Below are positions 27,101 through 59,528 of a stretch of DNA of 64,000 nt, piece by piece. Source of the DNA: Lingula anatina (lineage: Eukaryota > Animalia > Brachiopoda). Positions within the stretch are counted from its first letter, which is position 1, and each line of letters begins with the position of its first letter. Location: NCBI GenBank assembly GCA_051362555.1, contig CM120642.1, positions 3,224,001 to 3,288,000 of the forward strand, written 5' to 3'. The position numbers and the translations under genes were made by a program. The notes under the pieces were generated by a model. It was not told the DNA's origin and searched no databases. It saw only the letters and a program-made list of their open reading frames with translations.

Positions 27101-30100
27101 CAATAGAAAAGAGAAGAGTCAGATGGTAAATTGCCAGGTTCACCTGTGTGTTCTAATTTGAGTAGAGTTGCTGCAAATTTCCGTTGGTAGTTTTGGTGAG
27201 CGAATACATCAAATACAGAGCACTGGAGTAATGTTAGGGAACACTTAACATGTCATGTAAGGAGGCCAACTTAAAAATTTCCCAGAACAGTCTTTTTTTA
27301 AGAGCTCATGAATCAACTCACATTTGTAAACAAGTACATGCCTTTTTCCATGCAGTACAAAAAATGCAATAAAAAGCAAAAAAAAAAAAAAAGGTGAATA
27401 TTGATATGGTGCCTTACATGTATTTATGTCTAATATGAACGTCCACGACCATGAATATTTTGAATAGACTCAAGGCCCTTGAAGATAGTGTCAGCATCTG
27501 CTGTTCTAATTATAACATCATCATGCATATAATTATTGTAACTTGAAATCTAAATACCTAGTTGTTTTTTTTTTTTTTTAATTTAAATTTCTTCTGAAAA
27601 ATAAAAGCAGGGTATTTTTTTTTCATTTAGTGTCTTCTATTGTCCAAAACCAGAATAGTTGGAAGGATTTATATTAGGAGAAATGGGAGAGTTTGTAAAT
27701 CAAAATAAGATATCAACAACCATCAGTTTTTGCATTCCAACACAGACAACTGACACCCATTATGATACCCCTGCCCTGAATCTACAGACCAAAGATAAAG
27801 GCATCATCTTACTAGGAGGTAGTTGCTTTGGAGAAGCATGTGTGAGGCCTAATGTGTGCTAATAAGCTTCTCATCACATAAGAGTAAATCTGTGAAATGA
27901 GGTGTACCAGTTGACAAGATGAGCCGTGAAATGAGAGGTAATCATTCTTGGCAGTGGGGTCTACAGAACTGTGTCAGACCAAGAGCTTTCATATAAATTA
28001 ACAAAATATTGCAATTAGAAATTCATGCATATGGTAACTCAAACACTTAATCTGTGGTTAACAGTTATGTGAGCCCATCTTGAAAAAATGAGGCATGATT
28101 GAAATTACCACATTTGCCCGTACATTGAATTATATTTGTTTTCATTTGAATTATTGAATGTATTTACCACATGTCAATGATTATTTCCACAAATTGGTAT
28201 CTAAATTGTCTTTTGTCTTTTAAAAGTAAAATGTCATTTTTCCCTCATATAATTTAAGAAGGGAGTAGATCCATATGCCATAAAGCAATGATCCATGAAC
28301 AAATGTTCATCATCAGACAGTCCATGCTTATAGTTAAACATCCATGTTAGCATTAATAGCTGTATCTAATGATGCTGAAAGGCCTTAAAGCCAACACACC
28401 AGGGAAATTTGAATGGTAACTGGATTAATAATCAGTTCATACTTGTCAGCGTTCGTTTGGACATGACCTACGAGGAAAAGAAGTCGAGCCCGAGTCAAGT
28501 TTATTAGCTTTTGTTACGAGATACACTTTCTCATTAGATAAGCGGCAAGGTTCGTGGGCAGTTAAACATGACTAGGATTATTGATTTGTTTCACAGAGGG
28601 AAGACTCCGTAGGTCTTGCAATAATCAGATCAGTTAATTTGTGGTCAATTTCACTTCGGAAGTAATTTCTGAAGTATCCTTCCAAATTAACAGAGCATAT
28701 GAAATTTATGTGGAATAAAGTGGTGGTAAAGCCGCCGCATGAAAAAATGCATGAGTTTGATGCTGTGTTAATTTTATTGATTTCTTTAAAGCTGTATAAA
28801 TTTGAGTTTGATTTAAAAACAACCAATTTCTTGATTTACAAGAGAATAAAAAAGTGAAAGCTGTAGCAAAGATGCTGCACTGACCATGATACAAGACAAT
28901 TTATGATGCTTAATAATCATAATAGTCTTTATGAAGAAGATAATGATAAGAGAAGACAGCTCACCTCCTCAAATTGTATTATACAATAATACCTGATTGA
29001 TAACATGTGGCTAATGGAGCAGTAATAAGCATATAATCACTACAATGACTGCTCCCTGAATACACCTGGTATCCTGGGCCCCGTATCTCGAAAGTACCAC
29101 GTATTGCGAATCGCTATATCAAAAAGAGGCTATAGTGTATTATATGGGACGAGTATGGGCGAGTTATGGAATCGAGACGCTTACGCATTTGCGCAACATA
29201 GCGAAGCTTTCGAGATACGGAGCCCTAGTCTCACTCTTCCATGTCTTTATTTTCATATCTAGGTAAAATGATTTTTTGCCTGATCAGAATGTGAAAAAAA
29301 TATTAGTCAAAAAATTAATACCATTCGTTTCTAAGAAACTATTTAGAGAACAATTGTATTAGATTAATTTTAAAATATTATGCACACCCATATTCAGAAC
29401 AGTGGACTGAAACCCTTTCTTTTGTGGTAATATTGGTTTGAAAAACGTAATATTATTTGCCTTATTCACTTCCATTCCATGCACTATGACTTTCTGGTCA
29501 AACACATAATCAGAGTTGCCAGTTCTACACAATTACTCATAATTTACTTATTATTTAGGATAGATTCCCATTGTTTACAGGTGTTATTTTATTGTTCATA
29601 AAGCCTTGGAGATTATTTCTACACAATTTAACTTGTGTCATGTTGGCAACTCTGCCCAAGATGCTCAAAAGGAGCCATTCACCATATCATGTGCCATTGG
29701 GGAAACAATAAGCTCAGTAACTGGAACGCTTACATTTTATCTCTCCAAACTTCTCCCTTTCTCATGACTCACATGCTATTATTTCATACTTTGTATGTTC
29801 TATGATGATTAGTCTTCGTTTTCTCTGCCTATGGCCTGTTCAGGCAGCCTGCTGACGGGGATGTTCAGGACAACCTGGGCCAGTTTGCTGGCAGTGGTTT
29901 GTGGGAGCTCGCGGAGGGGGCAGGGTAGGTAGGGAGGATCAGGAGGCCCTGTTCACATAGAGCAGTACAAATAAGCCACACAGAACCTAAAATGTGATAT
30001 CTCACATTGTAACGGTACAGACTGTATCATCAAAGTATACCAGTCAATGTTAATGATTTTCATTTATTTTGCAGTGCTTGATAGGCCAGAGGAAACCGTG

Positions 30101-33100
30101 CTGTTTGAAAATGGCAACATCCCAGCACCAAAATTTGAACCTGCCTTCTGTGTTCTTCTCCAGGAGCAACATAACCTTACTATGCACAGGACAGAGAAGG
30201 TGAGTGCAATTTTTATTTTTTATATTTTTTATTTTATTTATTGCTTCATTAAAGCTTTGTTACAATGTTACCATTTCATTTACACTGAGTCAAAAAAAAA
30301 TGCATGCCAGAGCATATGAGTCTGCTTAAGATTTTGTCTTTTTCGGGTGAAATTCATCAAAAACTTTAATAGCTTCACCAGGCAGCAGTTGTTCTGCAGG
30401 GATCCTTCTCTGATTGGTCTCTTTTCTAAGGTCGTCTGCCACGGCTTTCACATCTACACATCCCGCTTCATCCTCAAAGTGGGGAGAAATATCATCCGCT
30501 GTGGTCCCATAGTAAATTTTAACTATTCTGTAAAATGGCACATTTCTAATATGAACATCTTTTAAACATTTATGTTGCCATGAAAACACAATTAATATAA
30601 AAGAAAAAAGCCATTGAATAACATCCATAATTGTTCTGACAAATGAAAATGACAGTGATCAGCTTTTTACACTGAGTCTACTTATTGTGGTTGTTTGTCT
30701 AATTTTAGCAGTCTTAGCTTTGCCCAAAAACTTAATATTTCAATATTTCAAAAAAAAAAAAATGTCCCCTCTGACTTGCCATACCCAGCATACTGTATCA
30801 CAGCAGCACACATGATACATGGCTCACAGTTCGTGTAAATCTCGGCTCCCGTGAGATGTAGCGTCTTTAGTGCCGAGCACGTGTTACGAATGGCCTCCAC
30901 TTCTCCGTGTGCAGTGGGATCATGGCGTACTTTGATGTGATTCCAGCCTTCTCCTGCAAGAGATGGAAGATGTTTAGTTTGAACACTGGAATTAGATTTT
31001 GTACAAAAATAACTAGCATGAATAGAATAACATCCAGAGGTAGACATGGATTTTAGAACCCTTTATTGATAATCTCAATGTAACAGGTAAAAGTGTTAAA
31101 AGGGGAGGGGGGGCTAGAAAATATTTTTGTAGAAATTGGCCAAATGTAGCCCAAGGAGATAATGTGTGTCTGCTGGTCCTCAGGTGTGCTGGGATATATT
31201 TTGCCCTCAGTCCCACATGTCCTGCTCTTGCCCAGGTGTCATGGACCAAAGCCTGCTTCATGTGGTAAGCTTAGGCTGCTAAAATTGCATAGTCAGCAGG
31301 GGCGGATTTAGGCCGTCTTCTGGGTCTTCCGGAAGACGGTCAGATTTTCAAGTTTACATTGACGGTATCTATTTTTTTCTGATGGAAGATGGTCAAAATT
31401 GGAGGATGGATCAACAAAGATAATTTGGAAGACTGTCAGAAAATATCTTTGGATCCGCCCCTGGTCAGCTTCATTATAAATAATCACATTCTTTTACTAG
31501 TGGTGATAGGGGCAATGGTAGGACGTGCAGTAAGGGGGTACACCTGACTGATCAGGGGCTTATTTTTCATACTCAAACCCACAATGATAGATCCCTTACA
31601 GCAATATTCCAATACAGCACAAGCAAAAAACAACAATCACAACGACTTTCTTTCCTGTATTTGTTGACAGCTTATTTTTATTTGCCATATTTGCATTAGT
31701 CATTTTCTTTCTCTTATGTAAGATGATATGCAGAAACTACAACCAACAATATATACATATAACACAATAAGCTGAAGATATAATTCTAATGATTCATTGC
31801 ACCCTACCTATAATCTTGTAATCTCTCACAATGACACTTCCAAAAGCCTCACCATCTCCAGTGGCTGCTGCTCTTCTGCTGAGTTCTATAGCCCTCCTCA
31901 TGAAATGCAGCTTTAGGGCCTCTTCTGTGGCCATTTTATAAATTTACAGAACAAGTGGTCATCATTGCTCGTCTAAGTTAATAGTGACTGGGAAGTGACT
32001 GGGTGGCAGATATTATCACTGTACAAACAATTGTTGATTGACCTAAATGACTATTTGGGTCATTGGTTTGATCTCCTGTCATCTGTTTTGGGAAATTATG
32101 CTATCGTTTTAATGTTCTAAATTATAAAATTCAGTGAGAACATCTGTGAGTATTTGCTAGCCCTCTAACCTAAGAAATTTGATGTGCTTGTACCATAACA
32201 TGGCTTTATAAATGATCACAGACTAAATTCATTCAGTCTAATAACTTTATTCTGTAAGTACAGAAAGCTACAGAAAGGTAGTGGTTTTTCAAGTAACTAA
32301 ATAAATGGTTAGTGTGTGTATGCGCACGTGCACATGTGTGTGTGTGTGTGTGTGTGTGTGCATGCACACAATTTCTCATTGTTTTCCTTGGTGCCATTCT
32401 TCAAAAACTTTCTGAGCTTCTCCTGATAGTAGGCTTTGTGCAGGAATTTTGCGCTGGTCAGTTGGATTTTTCAGGTCTTCCTCAATGGTCTTTAGCGGGT
32501 GACCCAATATGGAGTAGACCACACACTTGGATACGCCGTAGTAAACCTTTGAAGCTCTGAAATGTAAAGCAAGTAATAAAAAGTAAATAATTGGTACTTT
32601 AATTTTTGGTTAAAGTTGTTTTATTTTAGTCAAAAGTTCTTGGAAATGAATGCTTCTTTTTTAACATTTGACTTTTTACTTATTTACCTCCACCCCCTCC
32701 TGCCCCCCCCCTCCCCCTCCCCCGTGTTTTCATGCTTGATACTACTCTTCTCATTTAATAGTGGTTACTGAATGTCATGGAAAACTTTAAGTGAGAATTT
32801 CAAAAGTTTGTAAAATATTTCATAAATTGGAAATTAATTTTTTTGTTTTTGATTTTAGGAAATAAAATGAATTATAAATTGGAAAAACCACGTTTTCTTT
32901 ACCCAATGATATGTATCGCAGCTGCACACATAAGACATGGTTCACAACTACAGTATATCTCAGTGCCCTCTAGTGACAAAGTCTTCATGGCACGACATGC
33001 GTTACGTATGGCATCGATTTCACCATGAGCTGTAGGGTCGTACTGGGATTTTGTATGGTTCCAACCCTCACCTACAAAATGAAATGGAATACTTAGCGAA

Positions 33101-36100
33101 AATGATGTTTGGTTGTATTATGGCTAGAATCACTGTTCAGCAGTCTGTATGGTTCCACCCCTATGATAAAAAATACTCAGCAAAAATGATGTTTTGTTAT
33201 ATTATGGCTGGGATTGGTGTGGGGCAATCTGATCAGTTTCATTTTACCCTGAAATTTAAAGTACACCTTTAGGACATGAACATAAGTCCCATTCCCAGCA
33301 TACCCAAGGTATGAACTCTGCAAAGATTATGCAAGATACCCAACTCACAGTCATTCGTAGATTTTTGTTGCACTCTTTGTCATATCTTTTATCTGGCTTT
33401 TCTTGACAATAATACTACTTTAAGGAGAACAGTGTGTAATACCTCACAGGGTGTATTAACGATCTTCATATATATTTTTTTTCTCTGCCTTCTGTCTTAC
33501 CTGTAATCTGGCTACCCTGGACAATAATACAACCGTAATGAGAACAGTGTGTAATACCCCACACAGCGTATTAAAGAAAACCTTCATATATATTTTTCTT
33601 TTTTTCTCTGCCTTCTGTCTTACCTATAATCTGGTTGTCCTTGACAATAACACATCCGAAGGGGGCCCCATCCCCAACTTTTACTGCATGTCGGCTAAGC
33701 TCTATGGCTCGTTTCATAAAGTGAATCTTAGATTCTTCTCCTTGACCCTCCATTTTCTATAAACAAAATGTCACAGGTGACCTGTTCCGCTATGTGACTT
33801 TACACTGCTGGGGGTGACAAGTGACTGTCACATAAGTTTAGTACTTGTCAAGTGCCATGTTGGCCTCGACCTGATCATGCGATGTGCAATGCATAACAGT
33901 GAAACCCATTACCAGGGATCAAACTCTTAGTATGTGTAGTTTGTTGAAGATTTTCTTTAATAATATTTTTAAAAATACACACTTTAGCAAAAATGATGTT
34001 TGGTTGAGTCAGTGTTCAACAACATGATCAGTTAGTGGGATTTTGTGTGGTTCCACTCCTCACCTACAAATGAGAATTGATGATGAACAATACTTAGCAA
34101 AAATGATGTTTGGTCGTATTATGGCTGGAATTGGTGTTGGGCAATCTGATCAGTTTCACTTTACCCTGAAATTCTTAAGTACACCATGAGGACATGAACA
34201 TAAGTCCCATGCCCAGGGTATGAACACTGCAAATATTATGCATGATACCCAACTTACAGTCAATCATAGATTTTTGTTGTGCTCTGTGTCATATCTTTTA
34301 TGTGGTTTTTTTTGACAGCAATACAACCATAAGGAGAACAGTGTGTAATACTCTAAAAATGTATAAAGGACCTTCATTAATATATATATATATTTTTTTT
34401 TGCTATGCTTTCTGATTTATCTATAATGTGGTTCTCCTTGACATTGTAAGGAGAACAGTGACTGTGTAAGTATATCAGTGACTGTGTAAGTATATCAAAG
34501 AAAGCCTTCATGTATATTGTTTTCTTTTTTACTCTGCTTTCTGTCTTACATATAATCTGGTTGTCTTTGGCAATAACGCATCCGAAGGGGGCCCCATCCC
34601 CAACTTTTACTGCATGTCTACTGAGCTCTATGGCTCGTGTCATAAAGTGATTCTTAGATTGGTGATTGGGGGATTGATTGATTGGTTGATTTGGTTAATG
34701 ATTTTTAATGAATTGTTATTTCGTAATATTTTAGTTATTTTAATTATTATGTTTGGAGGGAAAATAATTGTTCCTGTTTAGTTTTGTATTTACATACAAA
34801 GTTTTATTTAAGTCACTCTTGATATTTTTCCCGTGTAATGGTAAACATGAAAACTTTTATAAGTGTTCAGCATTGTGGAAGAGAAAAAAAAAACAAATGT
34901 TCTAAATTATAATTTAGTTAGAACATCTGTGAATATTTGCAAGCCCTCTAAGTTTGATTTGCTTGTACCTTAACTTGGTTTTATAAATTATCACATACTA
35001 GATTCATTCATTCTTAGTACTTTACTCTGTAAGTACAGAACAGTACAGAAAGGTAGTGATTTTTCAAGTGACTAAATAAATGGTTATTGTCAGGGACACA
35101 GTTTCTCAATGTTTTCCTTGGTGCCATTCTTCAACAACTTTCTGAGCTTCTCCTGATAGTAGGCTTTGTGCAGGAATTTTGCGCTGGTCAGTTGGATTTT
35201 TCAGGTCTTCCTCAATGGCCTCTAGGGGGTGACCCAATATGGAGTAGACCACACTCTTGGATACGCCATAATAAACCTTGGAAACCCTGAAATGTACACC
35301 AAGTAATAAAAAGTAAATAATAGGTGTTTTTTCTAGTGAAAGTTGTTTTATTTTAGTCAAAAGTTCGTGGAAATGAATGCTTCTTTTTTTAACATTTGGC
35401 TTTTTACTTATTTGCCTCCACCCGCTCCTGCCCCCCCCCCCCCCTCCTCCCCTAGTTACTGAATTTCAAGGAAAACTTCAAGTGAGAATTTCAAAAGTTT
35501 GTAAAATCTTTCATTGGGAGAAATTAATATTTTTTTTTTGTTTTTGATATTAGGAAATAAAAATGAATTATGAATTGGAAAAATTATGTTTTCTTTACCC
35601 AATGATATGTAACGCAGCTGCACACATAAGACATGGTTCACAACTACTGTATGTCTCAGCTCCCTCTAGTGACAAAGTCTTCATGGCACGACATGTGTTA
35701 CGTATGGCGTTTATTTCACCATGAGCTGTAGGGTCATATTGGGATTTAGTATGGTTCCACCCCTCCCCTACAAATCAGAATTGATGATGAACAGTTCTCG
35801 GCAAAAATGATGTTTGGTTGAATCAATGTTCCACAATCTGATCAGTAGTGGGATTTTTTATGGTTCCACTCCTCACTTACAAATAAGAATTGATGATGAA
35901 CAATACTCAGCAAAAAATATGTTTGGTTAAATTATGGCTGGGATTGGTGGTTGGCAATCTGATCAGTTTCACTTTACCCTAAAATTTTAAGTACACCTTT
36001 AGGACATGAACAGAAGTCCCATACTAGCATACCCAAGGTAAGAACACTGCAAAGATTATGCATGATACCCAACTAACAGTCAATCATAGATTTTTGTTGC

Positions 36101-37281
36101 ACTCTTTGTCATATCTTTTATCTGGCTTTTCTTGACAATAATATAACCGTAAGAAAAACAGTGTGTAATACCCCACAAAGTGTATTAAAGAAAAGGTTTA
36201 ACCTTCATATATATTTTTCTTTTTTTTGCAGTTCTAGTTATCTTACCTATAATCTGGTTGTCCTTGACAATAACACATGCGAATGGGGCCCCATCCCCAA
36301 CTTTTACTGCATGTCGGCTAAGCTCTATGGCTCGTTTCATAAAGTGATTCTTAGATTCTTCTCCTTGGGTCTCCATTTTCTATGAACAAAATGTCACTGA
36401 TGGCCTATTCTGCTACGTGACTTTATGTGGCTGGGGGTGACAAGTGACTGTCACATAAGTTTAGGACTTGTCAATTGCCACGTTGGCCTCGACCTGATCA
36501 TGTGATATGCAATGCATAACAACAAAATCTGTTACCATGAATCAAACTCCTAATATGTGTGGCTTGTTGAAGACTTTCTTTAATAATGTTTTTAAAATTG
36601 CACAATAGGTTTAATATTTGCAATAGTAAAATGTTGAAATTATTTGGGCACATTGGGAATCAGTCACCCTCAGTGTAGATATTGTGTCAAGGATATGACA
36701 TCTTCCTTATATAACAGATACAATCCCCTATTAGGTATTACATATATTATGAAATGAATGAATATTGTATTACTTTGGAATATGTAGATCAAATTCTGTC
36801 ATAGAAAACCTAAGATATGCTCTTTTTGCCTCTTATTGAAGATTTTAGAGAAAAGAACTGATTTAGAAATGTAAAATCTAAAAGTTTTTGATGCTTTCTG
36901 CTAATGTCTCCCAGAAATTCTTGTCAAAATGATGTAGTAATTATCCATGTAATGATTCATTGTCAGGGAAACTGGACTAAGCTATCCAATTTATATACAT
37001 GGAATGAAGGACAGAATTAACAAAGACAGATAAAAGTGCTTTATCTTTCAATATTGACATTGTTCATTAACTGCAAGTACATTTTTCATCAAAAAGACTA
37101 AAGTTATATAATCATTTGATTGTCAAGTATCTTATTCTGAGCCATCAATTTATCTTCTTATCAGCTTTGCAATTTATATAATTTATATTTCACAAGTCCG
37201 GCCGCTACAAATAGTCTTCAGATGAATTCTGGGTAAAAGACTGAAGTTCTGGGTCAGAAGATACTGAAAGTGACTTTGTGC

Positions 37282-37328
<47 letters not shown>

Positions 37329-40300
37329 GTTGAAAATAATCAGTATTCTAATAACTTATTCCAGTAACTGTTATGAAATACAGTTTTTAAAAAATTATGA
37401 TACTAGTATTTATATGAACATTATTGTTTACAATTATTAGACGTTTCCAGATGAATAAACTGCTAAATATACACCAAGTGAATCAACTGGCTTGTTCTAA
37501 CCTTTTGACATGCCATCCTCAAATTAACTCAGCACAGATTGATGTATTTTGCACCTATCAGGGAGGTTTTGCTCTCTGGGTTTCAAAAATCAATCTGGGA
37601 AAAAAGCCAGTGAGTCAGAAACTCTGTGTAATCAATACCCAGCATAAACATTTCCTCAATTTTTATTTCTCATGGAGGTTTTTATATTGAGCTGTCCCCA
37701 AAGGAAATGAAGTCAGTCCACAGTGATTCAGACCAAGTTTTAAGTTCATACACAAACAATATGTCTGTCAAAATAATTGATATTTATTGTGTTTTTCTTT
37801 TCCTTGTTGCTGTAATAGGTCCAGATAATTTCAAAGTCCTAATCAGTCACTGATGAAGCCTGCAGATTTGTTCCCTCTAAAGCATGTGGGTTCAGGTTTC
37901 CTTTACATCATGTGTTCCTACAAATGAGGGATATGCGTGGAGGTTAACATCTTGAGATTGTACCAAATTACATATCATGTCATAAATGAAATTGAAATGA
38001 GCTCAGAAATGTCAACTCAAAATAAATTCAGATTCAGTTTTTTTTGTTCCAGTCAGGATTGAAAGGTGCATGAAATGCTAACCATCACATTTGGATACAG
38101 GAAATTGATTTTCTTTGTTTGGAAGGATTCCTGCATGCTTTCTCTTCTTACCAGCAGGTGTATGGCTTCTTATAAATTATTATTCTGTGGGAGATGCCAA
38201 GGCGTGCTTATAACTGGAAAATATCTTTTATTATATAGGATGAATTTTGTCAAATTATATAATTTTAAAAAAATTATTATACTTTGTTTGTTAATTTTTG
38301 TTAAATGATTTTTTTATTTGCTTGTGCAATTTATAAATGCAAGAGTGAGAAAAAATACAGATTATAATATTTTTTTCCACTTATCAAATTTCTTCATTAT
38401 CAACATTGCCTTGCAAGAAAATTCTCTGTCTGAAACAACCTCAATTCTCTAAAGATTAACAGACAGCCTGCATAATCCACAACATAAATAGTAGATGATT
38501 ATTTTGTACTTATTGATTTTCTAAAATTGCCTCTTAAAAGCTTAATATAAGCAATGGATATTGAAAATGAAGAGGCTTTCACGGTTCATTAAAAGGAACT
38601 TGTTATTGAGATTATTTGAATAAAGTCCAAGTATTTTACTAAGGCTTCGTTCACATGCAATGTCTATTTTCTAAATTCTGTTTTCTATTCGCGCTATCTT
38701 ATGATCACGGTCTGTGCCCTGAATATCCCGCCGCGTAATTACTGGCAGCGCGAGCCAGTTACTTATAGTAACTTATAGTAACTGGCTCGCACTGCCAGTA
38801 ATTACGCCGCGGGATATTCTGGGCACAGCCTGTGATCATAAGACATACTGCGAATAGAAAATAGAATTTAGAAAATAGACATTGCATGTGAACAAAGCCT
38901 AAGTAGCAGTGAAATATCCACAGAATCCAATATTGTGTCTTTCATCTAAGACATATCTACATCAGGATTTCATAACAAAGCAAAGAGATTGTTATATCTT
39001 TTTTATCTGTTATGATTACTTTTTCATTCCTTCATGCTAAACGAGATGTCTATATAATATGCAAAAGAAGGGATTTTGATTTTAAAAAAATGTCGATTAT
39101 TGTTAATGGTACAGAAAAAACTTATAAAGCTGGTACAGGGCCAAGCTCATAAATTCAGTCCAGGTTTACCGTCACCTCACAGTGCTGGCTACCAGTCTAA
39201 TTACCAAGTCTGTTTTTTGAAAACAAAAAAATGTGCCTTTCACTAAAATTCAAAAATAGCCCAAAACCTTGTCAAAATCTTCATTGCTGTCCCCTGATCA
39301 GTGTATGTGACTGTTGATGACATACACTAGGGTCTCATAGGAAGAGGATCATACATCATTTCATGAGTATGTGAGTCACTCTCTTGAGATATATTACCTG
39401 TGCTTTTTTTTTTTTTTTTTTTTTGATGAGTGACTTATGTTGGAATAATAAAGTGAGTGTGCTTAAAATGAGATGTGGATGACTGCATAATGACACTTAC
39501 ACCAGATCTGGAAAAATATGGATAAAGTGACATTTGACAGTAATAAGGATGTAAATTTCTGAAATATATATGGGATTTGTATAAAGAATGTAATTTCTTC
39601 TCTCTAAAATTTTGTACTGGATACCACCAAAGAAACATATTCCAGTACTTCATCATGGCAAAAACTAAACAGCTATAGCTACTGCAGTGAGAAAATTCTC
39701 ACAATTTCACTGATGAGACTTTTCCTACTTTTGTCGGAATTCCGACTTTTTCAGGGTCAATCGGGTCATTCTTGTGAATCTTGTACCCTGGACCCACGGC
39801 CAATTTTCCTACTTTTTCATTGAGGACTGGTCTTATCCCTGCGATTTAATTTGTGGTAATTCGGTGAACCCTGCCTGCATGAAAGTTATGATGAGGTCCC
39901 TGTGGTTTGTTCTTATTAATTTATCCCACAAATAGACATCACTTAGTCATGATTAGACTGACACTCTGAACTCCCCCACAGACATAACTGAATTTTCTAG
40001 AGCGCTGGGGCTATCCCTTGTAGTATTAGCTTATCAGAGGTGGTGACAGTGTTGGATGTATGAAAGATGCATTCTGCATGTATGTAGATGGTGTTATTAA
40101 AAGAAGACGGGGGAGAGTGCTAGAAATTTTAGATATTTGTACCAATGTACTAGAAACTTCTGTATCCTCTCTCTTGGATAGACTATGGTCCTATGATAGG
40201 ACCTCTACTGAGTGTCCAGTGATGTAAGATTTTGTCTTGGATTTAAACTACCAGGTAGCTACTTTCCTGTGCATTGTGACCTGGAAATTCACCCAGATAT

Positions 40301-43300
40301 AAAAATGAGGTTGCTAGCTTTGCGTGGATTAGGAAAGGGGATTCTGATTCGTATGCAGATTTTGATGCACCAATTAAAACTGTATTTTATCAGAACTATT
40401 GAGAGAAGCTGAGAGGGTATAACCAGAAGTGAATGGTGAACTACAGCATATGGAGAAAGTGAATCGTCCGACATGTATAAATGGCATTTTTTTATTCAAA
40501 CCATTTATATTGAACATTTGGAATTATTTCCCCCTCTCTTCCTCTTTTCAGTTGGAGTTTTTAATTCTGGAATCATTTCCACACACCACCCTCCCCCTTC
40601 TTTAAAGATGAGGAGAAAAGGTATTGTCTCAGTGACAAATTGGCATTACTTCTTCTCCTCTAGTCTTTGTGATAATCTGATAGAAAAAAATCAATTCTCT
40701 GCCTCTTTTCTAATCACTTAAGTTCCTAATTCAATTTCAGAGCTGCTGCATTTTAATTTGAGCCAGTAATTGATGTATAGCAATTCCTATTGTGTTGGTG
40801 TTTCAATATTTAATGCTTGACCTTCCTCTAGTTGATTTGCTTTTGGGTCTGACATGGAATGAAATGCAGAACTGATTTCAGTGTATGGTGTGATACATAA
40901 TAAAGTCTTACACAGTATGGAGTGTTGTCCATATTTAGCTTGAAAAAATTGATTTGTTTTGTCTGTTAGTTTTGTCTGTTATCCTTTTTTTCTCAAAGCA
41001 CTAGTAGTTTATGCTGAAATAATTACTCCCTGAAATGAAAATTGATCTTCTGGGATTTAGATATGAATTAAGAACTACTCACTACATGTTTTTGATGAAG
41101 GTTAAAAAGAGATGAGAAAATGCTATAATGCACATTCAGTGTATACTGCCTTAAGTGGAAAGTGTATTTTATATTTGTTATGGATTGTTTTGATTCCATG
41201 CTCCATGGCTTTAGCATATTTTCCTCTAGAGGATGAAAAAAGATGAGATAAATAGATAAATAAATGATGTTGTAATACATTGGCAATGTGTGATATTGCC
41301 TTAAGTGGAAAGCGTGTTTCACAGCTGTTACATTAGCATCACTTTCTTCATTCTGATCATTCTTAGCAAAAGTAGCAAGTCAGGGAAGGTGTGCTTGGTA
41401 ATGTCTGACATGTAGGTTTGATAGCAAGGATGAGTGTTTGTGTGTCAGTGTGTGTGTGTATTAGGTGCATTGTCTAAGATGCCAAGGTTAGAAACTAATT
41501 CACGTGTGAGATTCTCCATATTTCAATGGCAATTAAATGATAGAATATCAGTAAGATTGAATTACCAGTGAAATTCAAACTTGGGTATTTATTGTGAACT
41601 TTAAGTGGAATTTATGATATTTATGAAACAAAGTTAGTAGATATTATATTATAATTGTGCTGTCTGTCCTTTTCCATAAAATTCCCTCTACACAGGGGCG
41701 GATTTAGGCCGTCTTCTGGGTCTTCTGGAAGACGGTCAGATTTTTTAGTTAACATTGATGGGTATCTAATTTTTTCTGTCGGAAGACGGTCAAAAATGGA
41801 GGATGGATCAACAAAGATAATTTGGAAGTCTGTCAGGAAATATCTCTGGATCTGCCCCTGCTATACACTTACATAGAATAACTAAACAAACTGATTTGAA
41901 ACATTGATTATAATTGCTTTCTTCTCTACGGATTAAATTACTGAAGAATTTTTATATAAAGTTTGCATCAATTGTATGCAGTATTCAGGCTGAATGGTTG
42001 AGTACCTCATTGTACAGAGCACATCCTCTGTGTCACATCTAGCACAATTGTGCCTGTCACATCTAGGGCAGTCTCAACTACAACAGCCTGTTAAAAAGGA
42101 CTTCATACTTTTCAGAGGATTAACATGACAGTGTGCAAATGTTTACTTGCTTTTGAGTGTATGACTTTCGGAGCTGTATCAATATGCATTTGTCTAATTA
42201 TAGCCAATAAGAAAAATATTTTTTGTTAAAGGCATGATTTTTTATGGAGCATGTTTTCTTTTCTTTTTGTGCAGATTGCAGAAGAGAGATGCCCAAGCTC
42301 AAATGTCCCAGTCCTCCGCCTGGATGAAGGAAAAGCCGAGTTTGACTTGAGATGGGGTTACGAAGCATTGGAAAGCATCAGGGAAAATTCTTTGTCACAA
42401 ACACCGAAAAGTAAGTAAAAATGGCAAAATATTAACTATAGTACCTGGTAAGTAGAGGAAGACGGCATGATTTCATTTTAGTGTAGTTTTAACCAATTTT
42501 AAAGAAATAGATAACGCACGAGTGAAAATTCATCATTGTCTCACTGGTTCAGTCCGGATCAATAACAATTCTACTGCAGAATCTTAAGACCATGAATATG
42601 GAAGCTCACAGGAAATGGCCATTAGGCAGTATATGCATCAGACACTTTTCCTAGTCAGCCAGCAATCCATTAAGTAAATCATGTGAATTAATCTGTGTAA
42701 CTGCCAACCCCAGGGCTAGGTATTGGCGCTATCTGAACGTATCATTACTTAGTGTTGGGTCCAATGGAGAGTTCAAGCTCTCTCAATAGCCAGGGGGATG
42801 TATACTGCATCTCAAAGTAATGGCTTTGTTTAAATTGCTTCAAGGGCATTTATGCTACTGTGGCCGTTTGTGAAATTGAATACCAACTTGGATTATGATG
42901 TTAACTGTTGAAAGGCTTGCTTTTTCTTTGGAACACATCCCGAAGAAATGAGTCACTTTGAAAGGGCTCAAAGATTGTGTAATAGCTGGGGAAATAATAT
43001 GTTGAGAAAAAAAAAATCAATTTTTGATTACTTAATTGTTGCATCTCATATTTTATTGGTGGTCCAGTCAGTTGACAGTAGTGACTATTCTGGAGCACTA
43101 GTAAATATCCACGAGGATCCCTTTTAAAAATAAAAATTTGAATTTGAATTATATATTTTACCCATTATCAAGTTAGTGAAAAGATAAATAAATATACAAA
43201 AAAAAAAGCAATTTGAGATAAGACTAAGAGGTGATGTTTTCAGGATTGTTTGCTAAAAGCCATTTTGTTACTTGATAGTTGATCACTTCATCCAGTGGCT

Positions 43301-46300: not shown

Positions 46301-49300
46301 TGAAATGCCAAGAATTGAATTTGAAGGAAAAGAGCAAATTGGCATCATCAGCATTAGACATATCTCTGTTATAAATTATATGGTAAGTTAAGATAAGTAT
46401 TTTTAAAACATGAGACTTTGTACAGGGATTTGGTCTTACTTGTTCTTTCTTGACAGTTTTTGGTGTAATTTTTAACATTGGGTGGCAGGGGGATCGTTGC
46501 TAATTTGCAAATTGAAATACTGAGATTTTCAGCAACATTAATGATAGTAATGACCACCAGGAATTAGAAAAGAATGATTGCAATAAAAATAAAATTCATT
46601 AAGCATAATGAAAAATTGAAAAGAATTATCTGTACTGTTGGCATGGAACAATATTTTTTTTCTTGACACATTTTTGTAGTGTAACTAGATATTTGTAGAA
46701 GTTTAATGTTAAAATGTGGCAAATGTGTAAGCATATATTTGAGAAGAGAGGAATGATAATTTTGATGAATCAAGTAGCGTGGATGCAAATGGGTTGAATC
46801 ACGCCAGTCACGCTTTTGATTTATTTTTTTGAACCCGCAATTTAGGTATATTCTGTAGTCAACAACAACAAAAACATGTTGATGTCACTCAGAAAAAATC
46901 AATTGCAACTTAAAGAAATACTTGCAATACCTGCATTTCTAAACTACATGTGATAAATTAGATAAGCTTCAGAACAAACCACATTTGTTCTACTAGCTTT
47001 AAATCAAGAACGAAAGATTGATGCTTGCAGTTCTATTTAGTTAAATTTAGTGCTTACAGATCTAATGATTTGAACATAGCTTGGGCAGTTTCTCAGCATG
47101 CTGGGTCCCTTGTTTCTTCCTGCTAGAGTTGCTCTTTTTCTGTGGTAGATTTGTGTAAGTTCTTAAGGTTAATAGTTAAGGTACTGGGCAAAGGTAAGTA
47201 TTGGATATCATTCATCCAGCATCACTAATTTGGTTTGTACAGTTTCATCCTGATGTTCTGTTGAAGTTATGTAGAACAACATCCCTGACATTTGTTACTT
47301 TAATGGATATTTTTGTATCTCCTTGAAACTGTCTTTGTAATAAATAAACCAGTGCTAATGATAGATGGGTAAGATATGAAATCGGCTTGGCTTATCAGCG
47401 TTCCGGTCTCAAATTTAGGGATAGTCCGCGTAAAGCACACCTGGTCCATGTGTTAAAGTACACTCCAGGAAAATATCTCTTCTGAGGAACATACTTCAGT
47501 TTGGGTGACTCACTGAAAAAGTGAGAGCTGTAGCTTTATAATTAATTGGTTTCTTAGTAACTCGTGAGTATAGAAAGCTGGCTGAGAATCACCAGACTTA
47601 AAGCTTTTCTTGCTTTGCAAGTCTCTGCTGTGAGATGCCGTCTGCTCTTGGTCCTTGCTCCACAGTGATAGCTTCTTGTGTAAGATTTACAAAAACTTTT
47701 TTTGGAAAAGAATAGAAAATTGAGGGAGATTTGAGATGTTTTGTGCTCACTGGGCTTCCCAAGCTTGTTTTTGTTCAAGGAGAGGAACAGTATCTAGGTG
47801 CAGCAAGAGGAATGTTAGTGGAAGATGAAGTCTCTTCACCAAGGATTTCCTGCATTTTTGTTATTACCTCAAACAGATAAGAGAAAAACAAGACTAAGTA
47901 CAACAAACATGTTTGTGGATATTACATCAGAGTTTTACTAAAGAAAATCAACAGGAAGAAAATGTTTCTTTTTAAAAGAAGAAAGAGAAAGTACAGTCTT
48001 TGTAAGTAGTATGATTGTTCAACAATATTTTGACTTTATTACAGTTATGCCTAGTGATCAATATAAGTTATTTAATGAATGGACCAAGCCGATGAAATTC
48101 CCTCACTTTGAAATATGTTGAAAATAATTAAATTTTTGAAGTGTATTTAGGATTTGGTCTTAGTGGATTTAGTGGATTTTATTGTACTTGATATAGATGG
48201 TTTAGAGAGAGGTGTGTTAATGGGCTCTCTCTCTCTCTCTCTCTCATTATACAAAAATGATAATGACCCCTTTTCTTTCACAAATGGCCAGTTGTCAGTG
48301 TATACTTTTCATTGAATTTTACTTATTTTTGATTTTGATCTTTTTTGGAAATCAAATAAGTACATTTTCAAAAAAAAAATCATTTGCCTTCCGTGCTGTT
48401 TTGGTCTTGGACTTGTTGATGTACTGTAGCTGTCTATGGGGATTAATAAGGAAGCATAAAAAAACTACATGTCTCCACAAAATTACTCATGTGCAGCCAG
48501 CATCAGTCTGGAATCTGAGGCTGGAGCCTCCCAAAGTATTTACAAACAATTCAAGGTGTCTTTTTTTTCAGTAATTTTTTTTTTTCGTTGATGTCTGCTG
48601 TTTCTCAATTAATGCCAGGATGCTTAATTCACTGTAGCATCTTTGTTTTGGAATGCCCTCACTCTAGAGAATCTGGTGGGAGAATGTGGTCACGCTATTT
48701 GCTGACTTGCTAAAAAATTATCACTATGGGGAAGCAGATTCCTAAAACTCTCTGACATTGGTGAAAAATATTGGGCTGCTTTAGAATGGGTACACCAAAC
48801 ATGTTTGTAGCTACATTTCTTCCTTCTCCATCCCCCTTTCTTTTCAATCGCCAGCTTTGGGCCAAGTATGTATGTCATTGGCAGACACAGGTTAAAATAT
48901 GGTATTTTTCATTTCGGTAAGAACAGGTGCATTTGTCTTGTGTGTGTGGGCTTGGATCATCAGGTCTTCACCTTTGTGCATATTTTAAAGATTAAGTATG
49001 CCAAAAAGTGTTGTTTTTGTATGCAGTGAATTGTGGCCTTTAAGATGCATTGTCAGTGTGTATCAAATACCTTGCCATGGTTGTTAACATCTATCATCTG
49101 AAGCCACTGAAACATTTCTGTACAGTTTGAAATTTAGAATTGGGGTTATAGCATTTACAAATACAAGAGCACAGTAAGGAAATTAAAAACAATTCATTTT
49201 AGGTATCTTAGAAGGACTGCAGCAGTGGTTGAAGGTTCACATGAACTTTTAGTGATACACAGGGGCGGATTTAGGCCGTCTTCTGGGTCTTTCGGAAGAC

Positions 49301-51084
49301 GGTCAGATTTTTAAGTTTACATTGACGGGTATCTAAGTTTTTCTGTCGGAAGACGGTCAAAAATGGAGGATGGATTAACAAAGATAATTTGGAAGACTGT
49401 CAGAAAATATCTCTGGATCCGCCCCTGATACAATCCATAAAAATGTTGAAATAAAAACTGATAGAAAGTGGAAGCTCTAGAGATAATTTACTTATTAGTG
49501 ATTGTAAGTTTACAGAAGTGTTAATAGTTTTAGGTCTGTGGATATTTAGGATTGTTATCAGTTCAAATTTGGATATGTTTTGTTTTTGATTACCCAATCA
49601 AAACTGGAGTTCAACATAACAATATCGATTAAACTGGTGTTAAGTTTACCATACTACATTGTCTATACATGAGCCAGAGGCGGCTGTGTTGTTGGTAGAG
49701 TTGGGAAATAGTTTTTTTTTTCTAGGACCAAAACATTACAGCAGTACTCTGTTTGTTTTGAAATGGTGTTTTGTGTAACATGAGAAAAATGTGAATATTT
49801 AAACTTTTAGCCAATAGGATGAAATTATGATCTGATATGTGCCAGATTTTTTTATTAATTTTATTAGTGAATTAGATATATAGAATTTCTTGTCATAGAA
49901 TTGAATGCTGTCACACAATGTTTATATTATGAAGATTGAGTCCTGTATATTGAGATCATTTACACACTTAAAAATATCTGGCCCAGTGTTTTACTGCTAC
50001 TCATAAGCAGATCAAATATGGCCAACCCACTTGAAAGCTTACCGAATAATCCCTGTGGAGAATCTATTTAGTGCCCATCAGGGGATAATGCAGCAAGTAT
50101 TCAAGTGAGTCATATTTGATCCGCAGATCAGTTAGTCCATGGATCAACATGTTCTGAATGTGCTCACATATCCTGTTAATAGTTCATTATCAGGATATAT
50201 TACATTTTTCAATGTTTATTATAACTAATTTTGTGGTTAATGGTAATCATACTTGAAACCCAAACCACAGCACTATAATTTGCTTATCTGAAGTCAGGCA
50301 ATTCTGTAATATGATCTCATCTCAATAATGAATATTAACTCTGTTGGCTCTGGAGCCATGGAAGTCTGTGATCTGAAAGGAAAAGATTATTATCATCCAA
50401 GCACAACCATGAATGCTAATAGTCTATAATAAAGCCAGATGAGTAGGGGGAAATGTTATCATAAATGAGGTCCAGGCCATTTTTCAGAATGTTGTTGACT
50501 TTTATATCATCAAATGGGTCTGTAATGAAGCGTGATGGTTATTCACAGCAAGCAAGGATGTGAATACAAATGAAGTAAGGGCTTCATTTAGTTGAAGGCG
50601 GTCATTGTTTCCCCCTTTGGTGCTTTTCTTGGACATGGGCACTCCTGATAGAAAAGATGTTATGCAGTTCATCCTTTTTTCGCCTTTCTGTATAAATAAG
50701 TATGATGCCTGCAGCTGGAGGAAGAATCTACTGCTGCAGACATCACAACTTCTAATTGCTTGTTTGTGTCAAAAAAAACTACCATTAAGATCTGTACTGC
50801 TTGACGGAAAGAGTAAATCTTCAAGGTGAAGTCTTTTTTTTCTCTCTCTCTTTAGGCCTGAAAATATAACGCAGCTTGAGTATATCACTTATAATGTAAT
50901 GTTGCTTTGACAAGTGTCAGGTATTCGTCTCGTAGCATGAGTGGCTACTTGTCTTTTCTGGAAGTTGCTCAAGCTCTTGCTCAGTTACGTGCCTGATGTT
51001 TACGCATTTTCTTTTCAGGCTCCGAATCCTTTCTTCGTGAGAAGAGCCAGACTATCGCCACTTCCCATGCACTGTCACCTAAAG
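14247..51084 (+). CDS. Ras GTPase-activating protein of the raskol/DAB2IP/RASAL2(nGAP)/SynGAP family; 5' part only (N-terminal split PH region), gene continues beyond the window
   Basis: Phase-compatible exons: 14247-14307 (MDGNAKMPFPSRIEGWLNVW), 30075-30199 (VLDRPEETVLFENGNIPAPKFEPAFCVLLQEQHNLTMHRTEK), 42275-42410 (IAEERCPSSNVPVLRLDEGKAEFDLRWGYEALESIRENSLSQTPK) and probable 51019-51084 (SSESFLREKSQTIATSHALSPK). This matches my recollection of the Drosophila raskol N-terminus (YPSRIEGWLDV...PLYCVLQQD...IPRVRLD). The C2 and GAP domains are not seen in the window. Confidence 0.78.
16263..16949 (+). mobile_element. Non-autonomous PIF/Harbinger transposon (internal-deletion derivative) with a transposase N-terminal remnant
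   Basis: TIR GGGCCGGTTTCACAAAGCAGTAGTTAGTTAG with its perfect reverse complement at the right end. 3-bp TSD CAG (16260-16262, 16950-16952). Subterminal repeats gtttcacgaagcagt. ATG 16504 opens MAATFLAIRTARRQRRLRRFHERQNLLEYTHDDAIYKRLRL, which resembles HARBI1-type transposase N-termini. Confidence 0.88.
17091..17221. mobile_element. Degenerate copy of the CAGGGGCGGAT-TIR MITE family
   Basis: caggggtggatt...atcaacaaagata...aaatatctctggatctgcccctg; internally deleted relative to the copies at 31297, 41693 and 49260. Confidence 0.8.
19311..19550. mobile_element. Old Harbinger-like MITE
   Basis: Degenerate TIRs ggagtctgtttcacaaaat...attttgtgaaacctgccc resemble the termini of the 16263 element. 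A similar, weaker pair lies at about 20698-20942. Confidence 0.5.
23625..23658. repeat. (AG)n microsatellite
   Basis: Directly visible. Confidence 0.95.
24112..24141. repeat. (TG)n microsatellite
   Basis: Directly visible. Confidence 0.95.
29076..29225. mobile_element. About 150-bp Harbinger/Tourist-like MITE
   Basis: TIR gggccccgtatctcgaaag...ctttcgagatacggagccc (one mismatch) with a CpG-rich interior. The TSD is imperfect. Confidence 0.75.
29844..29924 (+). CDS. Candidate 81-nt in-frame cassette (or alternative first) exon of the RasGAP gene
   Basis: Pyrimidine tract plus ttcag acceptor, donor G|gtaggt, symmetric phase 1, GC-rich and open in the frame of the flanking exons (GSLLTGMFRTTWASLLAVVCGSSRRGQ). 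An in-frame ATG lies at 29831. Confidence 0.4.
30326..31934 (-). CDS. CDA-fold zinc-dependent nucleoside/nucleobase deaminase, GuaD/guanosine deaminase-like, copy A (165 aa, 3 exons)
   Basis: Exons 31934-31808, 30953-30785 and 30527-30326 (498 nt, GT-AG, phases 1 and 2). Protein: MATEEALKLHFMRRAIELSRRAAATGDGEAFGSVIVRDYKIIGEGWNHIKVRHDPTAHGEVEAIRNTCSALKTLHLTGAEIYTNCEPCIMCAAVIQYAGIVKIYYG...RRIPAEQLLPGEAIKVFDEFHPKKTKS. HxE and PCxxC are intact. Confidence 0.9.
31297..31463. mobile_element. 167-bp MITE (TIR CAGGGGCGGAT) with 5-bp TSD GTCAG, in intron 1 of deaminase A
   Basis: gtcag|CAGGGGCGGATT...GATCCGCCCCTG|gtcag; near-identical to the copies at 41693 and 49260. Confidence 0.9.
32376..33753 (-). 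CDS. CDA-fold zinc-dependent deaminase, GuaD-like, copy B (159 aa, 3 exons)
   Basis: Exons 33753-33624, 33071-32903 and 32556-32376 (480 nt). Protein: MEGQGEESKIHFMKRAIELSRHAVKVGDGAPFGCVIVKDNQIIGEGWNHTKSQYDPTAHGEIDAIRNACRAMKTLSLEGTEIYCSCEPCLMCAAAIHIIGASKVYYGVSKCVVYSILGHPLKTIEEDLKNPTDQRKIPAQSLLSGEAQKVFEEWHQGKQ. Confidence 0.9.
33975..34660 (-). pseudogene. Truncated fourth deaminase copy (5'-truncated exon 1, intron 1, aborted exon-2 start)
   Basis: 34660-34550 encodes SKNHFMTRAIELSRHAVKVGDGAPFGCVIAKDNQII without the original start. A copy of the B/C intron 1 follows, then an exon-2 start (34063) that reaches TAA at 34034-34032. No HxE or PCxxC exon is present. Confidence 0.85.
35106..36376 (-). 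CDS. CDA-fold zinc-dependent deaminase, GuaD-like, copy C (159 aa, 3 exons)
   Basis: Exons 36376-36247, 35767-35599 and 35286-35106 (480 nt). DPTAHGEINAIRNTC and SSCEPCLMC are intact. By hand count it differs from copy B at 15 amino acids. Confidence 0.9.
38643..38899. mobile_element. 257-bp foldback MITE with TAA TSD (PIF/Harbinger, Tourist-like)
   Basis: taa|GGCTTCGTTCACATGCAATGTCTATTTTCTAAATTC...GAATTTAGAAAATAGACATTGCATGTGAACAAAGCC|taa. The arms are complementary over about 120 bp up to the centre. Confidence 0.9.
41693..41860. mobile_element. 168-bp MITE (TIR CAGGGGCGGAT)
   Basis: Same family as 31297; flanks ctaca / ctata (4 of 5 match). Confidence 0.9.
49260..49427. mobile_element. 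168-bp MITE (TIR CAGGGGCGGAT) with 5-bp TSD ATACA
   Basis: ataca|CAGGGGCGGATT...GATCCGCCCCTG|ataca. Confidence 0.92.
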
Positions 51085-59401: not shown

Positions 59402-59528
59402 CAGGGGTGGATCCAGAGATATTTTTTGAGTCTTTCAAATTATTTTTGTTGATCCATCTTCCATTTTTGACCATTTTCTGACAGAAAAAAATAAGATACC
59501 CATCAGTGTAAACTCAAAAATTCTGATT
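59402..59528 (-). mobile_element. Truncated, inverted copy of the CAGGGGCGGAT-TIR MITE
   Basis: caggggtggatccagagatatttt...tttgttgatccatcttccatttttgacc...agatacccatcagtgtaaact is the reverse complement of the family's 3' three quarters. Confidence 0.85.

What the first reader, a model, noticed from the sequence alone, without database searches (positions are those of the whole stretch)
32376..36376. Copies B and C keep the catalytic zinc core but lose the guanine-recognition residues, suggesting a new substrate
Seen: B and C retain the Phe of PF(G/A), the Asn of GWN, HGE and PCLMC. After the last core strand they read YYGVSK(C/S)VVYSILGHPL and end in WHQGK(Q/H). Known (recalled from the B. 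subtilis GuaD structure): specificity depends on a Trp after PCxxC (AIYWA), the FDD loop and a C-terminal Tyr that seals the pocket. B and C have Ile at the Trp position, no FDD and no terminal Tyr. Copy A is intermediate (Tyr at the Trp site, FED, ends KTKS). Inference: the pocket has been opened or remodelled, so substrates could be other purines, modified nucleosides, pterins, dietary nucleoside toxins or even nucleic acids.
Basis: partly seen in the sequence, partly recalled or inferred. Interest (0 to 1): 0.8.

Follow-up and report, generated by a model that had tools for sequence, protein, structure and literature searches.

The report
Lidless guanine-deaminase-like enzymes in animals
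A lamp shell (brachiopod) carries three neighbouring genes for zinc enzymes built like a bacterial guanine deaminase but lacking the residues that grip guanine; they belong to a family also found in corals and a marine worm, and likely act on some other small nitrogen-ring molecule that is still untested.

Summary
The window is animal DNA (Lingula anatina by near-identical proteins) with three intact three-exon genes, A, B and C. A and B are spliced in RNA, and B/C are under purifying selection (dN/dS 0.29). B and C keep Phe, Asn, HGE and PCLMC and are predicted to keep the strand-swapped fold of Bacillus subtilis GuaD. They have Ile for Trp92 and HPL for FDD, and end four residues short of the terminal Tyr.

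This is not a B/C invention. A also lacks the Asp114 and Tyr156 equivalents: its 'FED' sits in an inserted loop. None of 19 rows of a clade holding Lingula, an annelid and two corals has Asp114. B/C are its most derived members. Bacterial relatives with the same losses sit in ring-catabolism operons, often beside creatininase, but the tree does not prove they are the source.

Best reading: cytosolic one-acid deaminases for a free small heterocycle other than guanine (about 0.55). Rivals are creatinine-type substrates (0.13), weak or no activity (0.13), guanine/guanosine (0.12) and nucleic acids (0.04). New variant of a known kind; substrate untested.

The parts
33624..33753 (-). Copy B exon 1 (start codon to the first base of Gly44; includes PFG)
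   Evidence: Gene model; intron 1 joint in RNA runs X1 (7 reads), X2 (1), X3 (6)
32903..33071 (-). Copy B exon 2 (GWN, HGE, PCLMC, His97-Ile98)
   Evidence: Pfam dCMP_cyt_deam_1 E 1e-14; both flanking introns seen in RNA
32376..32556 (-). Copy B exon 3 (remodelled pocket wall, swapped strand 5, shortened tail, stop codon)
   Evidence: intron 2 joint in X2 (3 reads), X3 (4), X6 (2)
36247..36376 (-). Copy C exon 1
   Evidence: read depth about 2 in X4 and about 1 in X6; no splice joint listed
35599..35767 (-). Copy C exon 2 (GWN, HGE, PCLMC)
   Evidence: Pfam E 5e-14
35106..35286 (-). Copy C exon 3 with stop codon
   Evidence: the protein differs from XP_013414325 at 3 residues
31808..31934 (-). 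Copy A exon 1
   Evidence: intron 1 joint, 8 reads in X3
30785..30953 (-). Copy A exon 2 (GWN, HGE, PCIMC, Gln96-Tyr97)
   Evidence: Pfam E 4e-12
30326..30527 (-). Copy A exon 3 (inserted FEDEAG loop, VDV in FDD register, ends KTKS)
   Evidence: intron 2 joint, 4 reads in X1 and 1 in X7; model
34035..34660 (-). Partial relic of a further B/C-type copy: most of exon 1, intron 1 and a stub of exon 2
   Evidence: 80% identical to 33163-33734; tblastn stub at 34094-34035; GT donor kept, last exon base changed, first codons missing; no joint listed in RNA

Best explanation
B and C are intact zinc-deaminase genes of the Bacillus GuaD fold that lack GuaD's second acid and C-terminal lid, and they likely deaminate a free small nitrogen heterocycle other than guanine. 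Shown: gene structure, splicing of B, purifying selection, retention of the His/Glu/Cys/Cys zinc site with the stacking Phe32 and anchoring Asn48, and loss of the Trp92, Phe112, Asp114 and Tyr156 equivalents. Predicted: a strand-swapped homodimer in which the partner's Ile98 region and Val113/Ile116/Leu117 form a hydrophobic, acid-free pocket wall that stays open on the side the tail seals in GuaD. Inferred mechanism: zinc-bound water activated by Glu61 attacks an amidine or guanidine carbon, with Glu61 as the only proton shuttle, as in mycobacterial Msd. The His-Ile pair matches His-Leu119 of plant guanosine deaminase, which suggests room for a ring substituent (a ribose or an alkyl group). 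The likely role is catabolism or clean-up of a modified base or nucleoside in the cytosol. The lidless, one-acid state is inherited from an older family (A, a second Lingula locus, an annelid, corals); B/C diverged further after an old duplication from A.
For: Catalytic residues are kept in 19 of 19 rows of the animal-containing clade and Asp114 in 0 of 19; one row (Owenia P0130) ends in Tyr. B vs C: 15 synonymous changes in 108 sites, 16 non-synonymous in 369, dN/dS 0.29, Fisher p 0.0012; A vs B synonymous sites are saturated (pS 0.79) at pN 0.29. Both introns of B and of A are seen in RNA. The AlphaFold2 model of P0122 (pLDDT 95) matches GuaD best: Z 21.6, rmsd 1.7, 152 aligned. Homodimer model: score 0.87 against a best control of 0.01, runs agree in at least 96% of contacts, partner pLDDT at least 88, residues 137-139 pair with 103-105 of the other chain. 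The mark was reached by 21 of 30 solved one-chain pairs and 0 of 23 single chains (animals 7 of 16), and a like complex is solved (1wkq), so the pass may be from memory. Two acids and the lid are essential in NE0047; Tyr185 capping is critical in AtGSDA; one-acid Msd skips guanine and takes isoguanine and 5-azacytosine. Bacterial relatives with the same losses lie beside ABC importers, amidohydrolases, creatininase, hydantoinases and RutR-like regulators.
Against: No assay exists and no substrate was tested. No coordinates were available for docking or for a residue-level superposition, so a replacement acid cannot be wholly excluded. The same papers say closure of the site is universal and that lid deletion abolishes NE0047 activity, which also fits a weak or dead enzyme. 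Expression is low (depth about 1-4 in the runs that cover them), and no joint was listed for C in 8 runs read at 6-30%. B's best BLAST hit is a canonical GuaD-type protein (52%, 160 bits against 135-141 for the others). The canonical/non-canonical split is weak (77/92), and an AU test does not reject grouping the animal rows with canonical GuaD (p 0.27), so the bacterial operons may not speak for B/C.
Confidence: 0.55

Rival explanations
1. B and C deaminate creatinine-type cyclic guanidines (creatinine, glycocyamidine), which carry the same amino-C=N / carbonyl face as guanine but no imidazole ring for Asp114 and Tyr156 to grip.
For: Creatininase (TIGR04448 above cut-off) lies near 24 of 66 non-canonical bacterial loci and 0 of 20 canonical ones, or 9 of 29 against 0 of 15 groups after collapsing at 75% identity. 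L001 is a full creatinine route (N-carbamoylsarcosine amidohydrolase E 9e-73, hydantoinase A/B, importer, creatininase) in which this deaminase is the only annotated deaminase in the 18 kb shown. B/C share Ala30 with that group (97%, against Gly in 100% of canonical rows).
Against: That bacterial group keeps Trp92 (100%) and Phe112 (93%) and has Glu inside CxxC (93%); B/C have none of these. It is not the sister of the animal clade. 9 of the 24 creatininase loci also carry a CodA-type deaminase that could do this step. The loci were seeded from one query (P0142). An opened pocket suits a larger, not a smaller, substrate.
Confidence: 0.13
2. B and C are weak or inactive enzymes kept as ligand-binding or partner proteins (for example in heterodimers with A), because an unsealed site without a second acid cannot finish the reaction.
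For: Lid removal abolishes NE0047 activity and truncation weakens AtGSDA binding. Position 119 is polymorphic. Expression is low. The branch to B/C is long (0.76 against 0.36 for A).
Against: Phe, His, Glu and both Cys are kept across the clade (Phe or Tyr at the Phe site) and Asn in 18 of 19 rows; core dN/dS for B vs C is 0.26; Msd is active with one acid.
Confidence: 0.13
3. B and C still deaminate guanine or guanosine, with a rebuilt pocket.
For: Best sequence and fold matches are GuaD, then GSDA. His-Ile matches GSDA's His-Leu119. Nematode CDA-fold enzymes are true guanine deaminases.
Against: No acid in the FDD register, and the tail is four residues short. GSDA keeps the terminal Tyr and needs it. 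Animals other than nematodes are reported to have the amidohydrolase-type guanine deaminase (Lingula itself not checked).
Confidence: 0.12
4. B and C edit RNA or DNA, with the nucleic acid closing the open site as in TadA.
For: The site is lidless; tRNA occludes TadA's cavity; Lingula has tandem clusters of AID/APOBEC-like genes.
Against: The fold is GuaD's swapped tail, not TadA's. The TadA model scores about 80 against a cut-off of 150. Net charge is slightly negative. B/C show purifying rather than diversifying selection. Bacterial relatives sit in small-molecule catabolic operons.
Confidence: 0.04

Closest known systems
Bacillus subtilis guanine deaminase GuaD (PDB 1wkq, 1tiy)
   Same: Best sequence match (E 1e-26) and fold match over the whole chain (Z 21.6); zinc site, Phe26 and Asn42; predicted swapped strand 5.
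   Different: Trp92 to Ile, Phe112-Asp113-Asp114 to His/Gln-Pro-Leu, no terminal Tyr. The roles of these GuaD residues are recalled; the 2004 structure paper was not held.
Arabidopsis guanosine deaminase AtGSDA (PDB 7dbf series)
   Same: His-Leu119 at the site where B/C have His-Ile; core match E 3e-23.
   Different: GSDA keeps the Phe139 loop and needs Tyr185; the structural match stops near residue 130.
Mycobacterium smegmatis Msd (isoguanine / 5-azacytosine deaminase)
   Same: One proton shuttle, a roomier pocket and no action on guanine: the nearest mechanistic precedent.
   Different: Distant in sequence (E 1e-9) and fold (Z 14); Msd closes its site with an inserted loop of its own.
C. 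elegans GDA-1 and GDA-2 (PMC13419446)
   Same: Animal genes of the same fold, proposed to come from bacteria, then duplicated.
   Different: They conserve the substrate-binding residues and are proven guanine deaminases. That paper found strong B. subtilis-like hits only in nematodes and does not mention Lingula or Cnidaria. I did not include nematode sequences in the tree.
Uncharacterised alphaproteobacterial 'nucleoside deaminases' in creatininase operons (e.g. WP_163078025, locus L001)
   Same: No Asp114 and no terminal Tyr; Ala before Pro-Phe; non-Pro inside CxxC.
   Different: They keep Trp92 and Phe112, have a conserved tail with Phe, and are about 39-45% identical to B.

Membership tests
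Deaminase (CDA-like) superfamily, helix-4 division | HxE and PCxxC zinc site | tested here: met
   HGE and PCLMC in B and C, PCIMC in A; Pfam PF00383 above cut-off
GuaD clade (structural definition of Iyer 2011, passage read) | Obligate dimer with strand 5 swapped and a helical insert between strands 4 and 5 | tested here: met
   Predicted only: monomer models match 1wkq/1tiy end to end; dimer model 0.87 against control 0.01 pairs 137-139 with 103-105 of the other chain, possibly from memory of 1wkq
CDA-type guanine deaminase (functional) | Stacking Phe and anchoring Asn | tested here: met
   Phe32 and Asn48 align with Phe26 and Asn42
CDA-type guanine deaminase (functional) | Second acid (Glu143 in NE0047; Asp114 in GuaD, equivalence recalled) | tested here: not met
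   Leu121 in B/C and Val125 in A; A's inserted FEDE loop might supply one
CDA-type guanine deaminase (functional) | C-terminal lid ending in Tyr | tested here: not met
   B ends at GuaD 152 and A at 154; 113 of 119 close hits end in Tyr
CDA-type guanine deaminase (functional) | Trp lining the pocket after PCxxC | tested here: not met
   Ile98 in B/C, Tyr97 in A
CDA-type guanine deaminase (functional) | Guanine to xanthine activity | not testable with these tools
   Needs an assay
Plant guanosine deaminase GSDA | His-Leu119 in place of Tyr-Trp | tested here: met
   His97-Ile98, a conservative match
Plant guanosine deaminase GSDA | Tyr185 cap and Phe139 loop | tested here: not met
   Both absent
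TadA/ADAT2 tRNA deaminases | Equivalog score and unswapped C-terminal helices | tested here: not met
   79-84 bits against a cut-off of 150; structural match about 105-120 residues
Creatininase-linked bacterial group (candidate creatinine deaminases) | Trp92, Phe112 and Glu inside CxxC | tested here: not met
   100%, 93% and 93% in 30 bacterial rows; none in B/C
AID/APOBEC-like deaminases | Profile match and loop-7 aromatic | tested here: inconclusive
   SNAD4 only at E 0.005-0.025, below cut-off; loop 7 not examined

The most novel reading that the evidence does not exclude
Corals, annelids and brachiopods share an ancient, bacterium-derived enzyme family that deaminates creatinine-type cyclic guanidines or other non-canonical ring compounds, an activity not credited to animals, and its bacterial kin are cytidine-deaminase-fold creatinine deaminases; Lingula B/C are a further-specialised branch for a bulkier substrate.
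Probability: 0.15. Interest if true: 0.75.

Novelty: new variant of a known kind. Interest (0 to 1): 0.5.

Why it matters
A 2026 preprint (PMC13419446) reports strong Bacillus-type guanine deaminase hits among animals only in nematodes. This locus exposes a second animal branch of that fold, in a brachiopod, an annelid and corals, that has dropped the guanine determinants yet stays under selection. Finding its substrate would add an unknown reaction to invertebrate nitrogen metabolism and test the rule that these enzymes need two acids and a lid. A, B and C are small single-domain proteins that differ mainly in the pocket wall, so they make a cheap natural series for that test. The bacterial relatives give a separate, sharper lead: a candidate cytidine-deaminase-fold creatinine deaminase. 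My ten literature searches listed no paper describing either; the library lacks most subscription journals.

Tried and rejected
No whole genome was held, so other Lingula copies and an amidohydrolase guanine deaminase could not be searched directly. No RNA holder was listed by index; same-species raw reads were laid instead (8 of 9 runs, 6-30% of each). No splice joint was listed for C; this is not evidence of silence. Contamination was rejected: shared GT-AG introns, spliced reads, host-like GC and an EXD3/Mut-7-like neighbour. Mis-splicing as the cause of the odd tail was rejected: B's intron 2 joint is seen in three runs. 'A keeps FED = FDD' was rejected as the helix-register alignment but left open as a loop-borne acid. 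'Animals descend from the non-canonical bacterial group' was tested and not shown (AU p 0.27). The ESM Atlas gave only generic bacterial deaminase clusters. Earlier-findings look-ups gave nothing by sequence or by the first word set; two entries from the third look-up concern amidohydrolase operons and did not bear on this. The GuaD structure paper was not held. A search on Lingula phosphagens found no paper, so I cannot say whether Lingula makes creatine. My first notebook entry calls the relic's donor 'broken'; one search shows the GT is intact. A scan for exons of the plus-strand neighbour found nothing decisive. No supplements were read; those of PMC13419446 (per-phylum BLAST hits) may bear on the claim that this branch is unreported.
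Full report
What is there. The window is AT-rich animal DNA. Three minus-strand genes lie in tandem between 30326 and 36376, each with three exons and GT-AG introns at matching positions: A (165 aa), B and C (159 aa each). B and C share 144 of 159 residues; A and B share 89. Each differs at only three residues from an annotated Lingula anatina protein (XP_013414087, XP_013414209, XP_013414325), and a second scaffold holds A- and B-like versions. A partial fourth copy lies between B and C.

Are they live genes? Eight of nine same-species RNA runs were laid, 6-30% of each. Both introns of B appear (intron 1: 7, 1 and 6 reads; intron 2: 3, 4 and 2 reads), as do both introns of A (8 reads; 4 and 1 reads). 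C shows depth of about 1-2 on its exons in two runs but no listed joint. B vs C gives 15 synonymous changes in 108 sites and 16 non-synonymous in 369 (dN/dS 0.29, p 0.0012). A vs B is saturated at synonymous sites. So the A/B split is old, and B and C are conserved as proteins.

The observation. Against B. subtilis GuaD, B and C keep the Phe26, Asn42, His53, Glu55 and both Cys equivalents. They have Ile for Trp92 and His/Gln-Pro-Leu for Phe112-Asp113-Asp114. The model of a B allele (pLDDT 95) matches GuaD end to end (Z 21.6, rmsd 1.7, 152 aligned) and stops at GuaD residue 152. Among the 119 other hits listed, 116 keep the Trp, 116 the F-x-D and 113 a terminal Tyr, so the loss is specific. A homodimer model scored 0.87 against a best control of 0.01, with at least 96% contact agreement and pLDDT at least 88, and it shows strand 5 swapped. 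The mark was reached by 21 of 30 solved pairs and 0 of 23 single chains (animals 7 of 16), and the solved GuaD dimer may explain the pass. Interface residues 112-113 and 116-117 are Val, Val, Ile and Leu, with no acid.

Correction on copy A. Its 'FED' precedes a five-residue insertion. The paralogue P0126 reads PHF-SVDY where A reads PHF-EDEAG-CVDV, and A's model starts the next helix at Val125 with the loop at lower confidence. A therefore has Val at the Asp114 site and ends at GuaD 154. It keeps an aromatic at the Trp site and the Asp113 equivalent, and its loop might still supply an acid.

The wider family. A profile search of 1.84 billion representatives and a further word search found relatives in Lingula (another locus), the annelid Owenia, the corals Desmophyllum and Pocillopora, and unnamed records. 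I chose 66 rows by hand from about 400 proteins and 86 loci. In that tree 19 rows form one clade (94/82, just short of starred): 8 named animals and 11 unnamed rows whose origin I did not check. The five Lingula rows are starred (98/93), and A is sister to B+C, with the longer branch to B+C. In these 19 rows the zinc site is intact throughout, Asp114 is in none, Trp92 is in one and a terminal Tyr in one. The loss thus predates B/C. The 34 other non-canonical rows, presumed bacterial, also lack Asp114 (one has Glu) and the terminal Tyr; that class was picked for these losses. The split from canonical GuaD is weak (77/92), and an AU test does not reject placing the animal rows with canonical GuaD (p 0.27). 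B's best BLAST hit is canonical, though that pool was larger (247 against 30 and 17). Several shared changes favour common descent with the non-canonical bacteria, but this is not shown.

Bacterial context. I examined 80 loci and 6 chosen from the 262 plasmid records, all seeded from P0142. Creatininase above its curated cut-off lies near 24 of 66 non-canonical and 0 of 20 canonical loci, or 9 of 29 against 0 of 15 groups at 75% identity; many loci are short or closely related. L001 reads N-carbamoylsarcosine amidohydrolase, hydantoinase A/B, deaminase, importer, creatininase. That leaves the deaminase in the creatinine-to-1-methylhydantoin slot (this step is named in the passage; the later steps are recalled). 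Nine of the 24 loci also have a CodA-type enzyme. Other members sit with RutR-like regulators, flavin monooxygenases, racemases and ureidoglycolate lyase. The common theme is import and breakdown of small nitrogen rings. B/C lack the Trp, Phe and CxxC Glu of the creatininase group, so creatinine is a lead and not an assignment.

Mechanism. NE0047 needs two acids and its C-terminal lid (PMC9081823, parts 2-3 of 6 read). AtGSDA needs Tyr185 to cap the site (PMC9739398, parts 1-2 of 4), and its pocket includes Leu119 (PMC10663702, passages), the position of Ile98 in B. Msd, with one acid, skips guanine and takes isoguanine and 5-azacytosine (PMC11963756, passages and discussion). From these I infer that B/C are one-acid enzymes with an open, hydrophobic pocket for a substituted ring other than guanine (0.55). 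The same papers leave room for a weak or dead enzyme (0.13). Creatinine-type substrates (0.13), guanine or guanosine (0.12) and nucleic acids (0.04) follow. The GuaD-specific roles of Trp92, Asp114 and Tyr156 are recalled, since the structure paper was not held.

Comparison with what is known. B/C are predicted members of the GuaD structural clade (PMC3239186, passages) but fail the functional tests for guanine and guanosine deaminase. PMC13419446 (outline, passages, sections 12 and 16) reports strong B. subtilis-like hits only in nematodes and mentions neither Lingula nor Cnidaria; its supplements were not read. PMC5889660 (passages) covers Lingula AID/APOBEC-like genes, a different family. 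PMC13054789 (passages) did not bear on the question. Ten searches listed no description of this branch.

Verdict. This is a new variant of a known kind, interest 0.5: a real, selected, apparently unreported animal branch with a testable shortlist of substrates and no activity shown.

Noticed in passing
L001:4228-14431 (Ancylobacter pratisalsi plasmid); also L007-L045: Operon of N-carbamoylsarcosine amidohydrolase, hydantoinase A/B, CDA-fold deaminase, ABC importer and creatininase: a candidate cytidine-deaminase-fold creatinine deaminase. In other Ancylobacter loci an unassigned amidohydrolase and an amidase stand where hydantoinase A/B and the amidohydrolase stand in L001.
   Followed up: partly
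window 34035-34660 and 35845-35932: Relic partial copy (exon 1, intron 1, exon 2 stub) and duplicated stubs of the exon 2 start inside intron 1 of C, pointing to repeated unequal crossing-over in the array.
   Followed up: partly
window about 1051-13194 (+): Exons of an EXD3/Mut-7-like gene (3'-5' exonuclease and Mut7-C domains).
   Followed up: no
window 29900-30341 (+): A plus-strand transcribed exon-like stretch (ORF 29975-30319; reads in X4-X7) abuts the 3' end of A tail to tail; no Pfam match for 30077-30199, gene unidentified.
   Followed up: partly
window 31297-31463; copies at 41693-41860, 49260-49427 and 59402-59526: A short interspersed repeat of about 167 bases in intron 1 of A, abundant in RNA reads from other loci.
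   Followed up: no
window 38637-38905: A 270-base imperfect palindrome (89% identical to its own reverse complement), possibly a miniature inverted-repeat element.
   Followed up: no
window 32499 and 32525: RNA alleles of B give Gln119 and Ser111, as in XP_013384426; position 119 aligns with GuaD Phe112.
   Followed up: yes
proteins P0125, P0299, P0128, P0136, P0148, P0159: Tandem two-domain versions of this deaminase occur; in P0128 the second domain has a degenerate zinc site (SEV, PDVMS).
   Followed up: no
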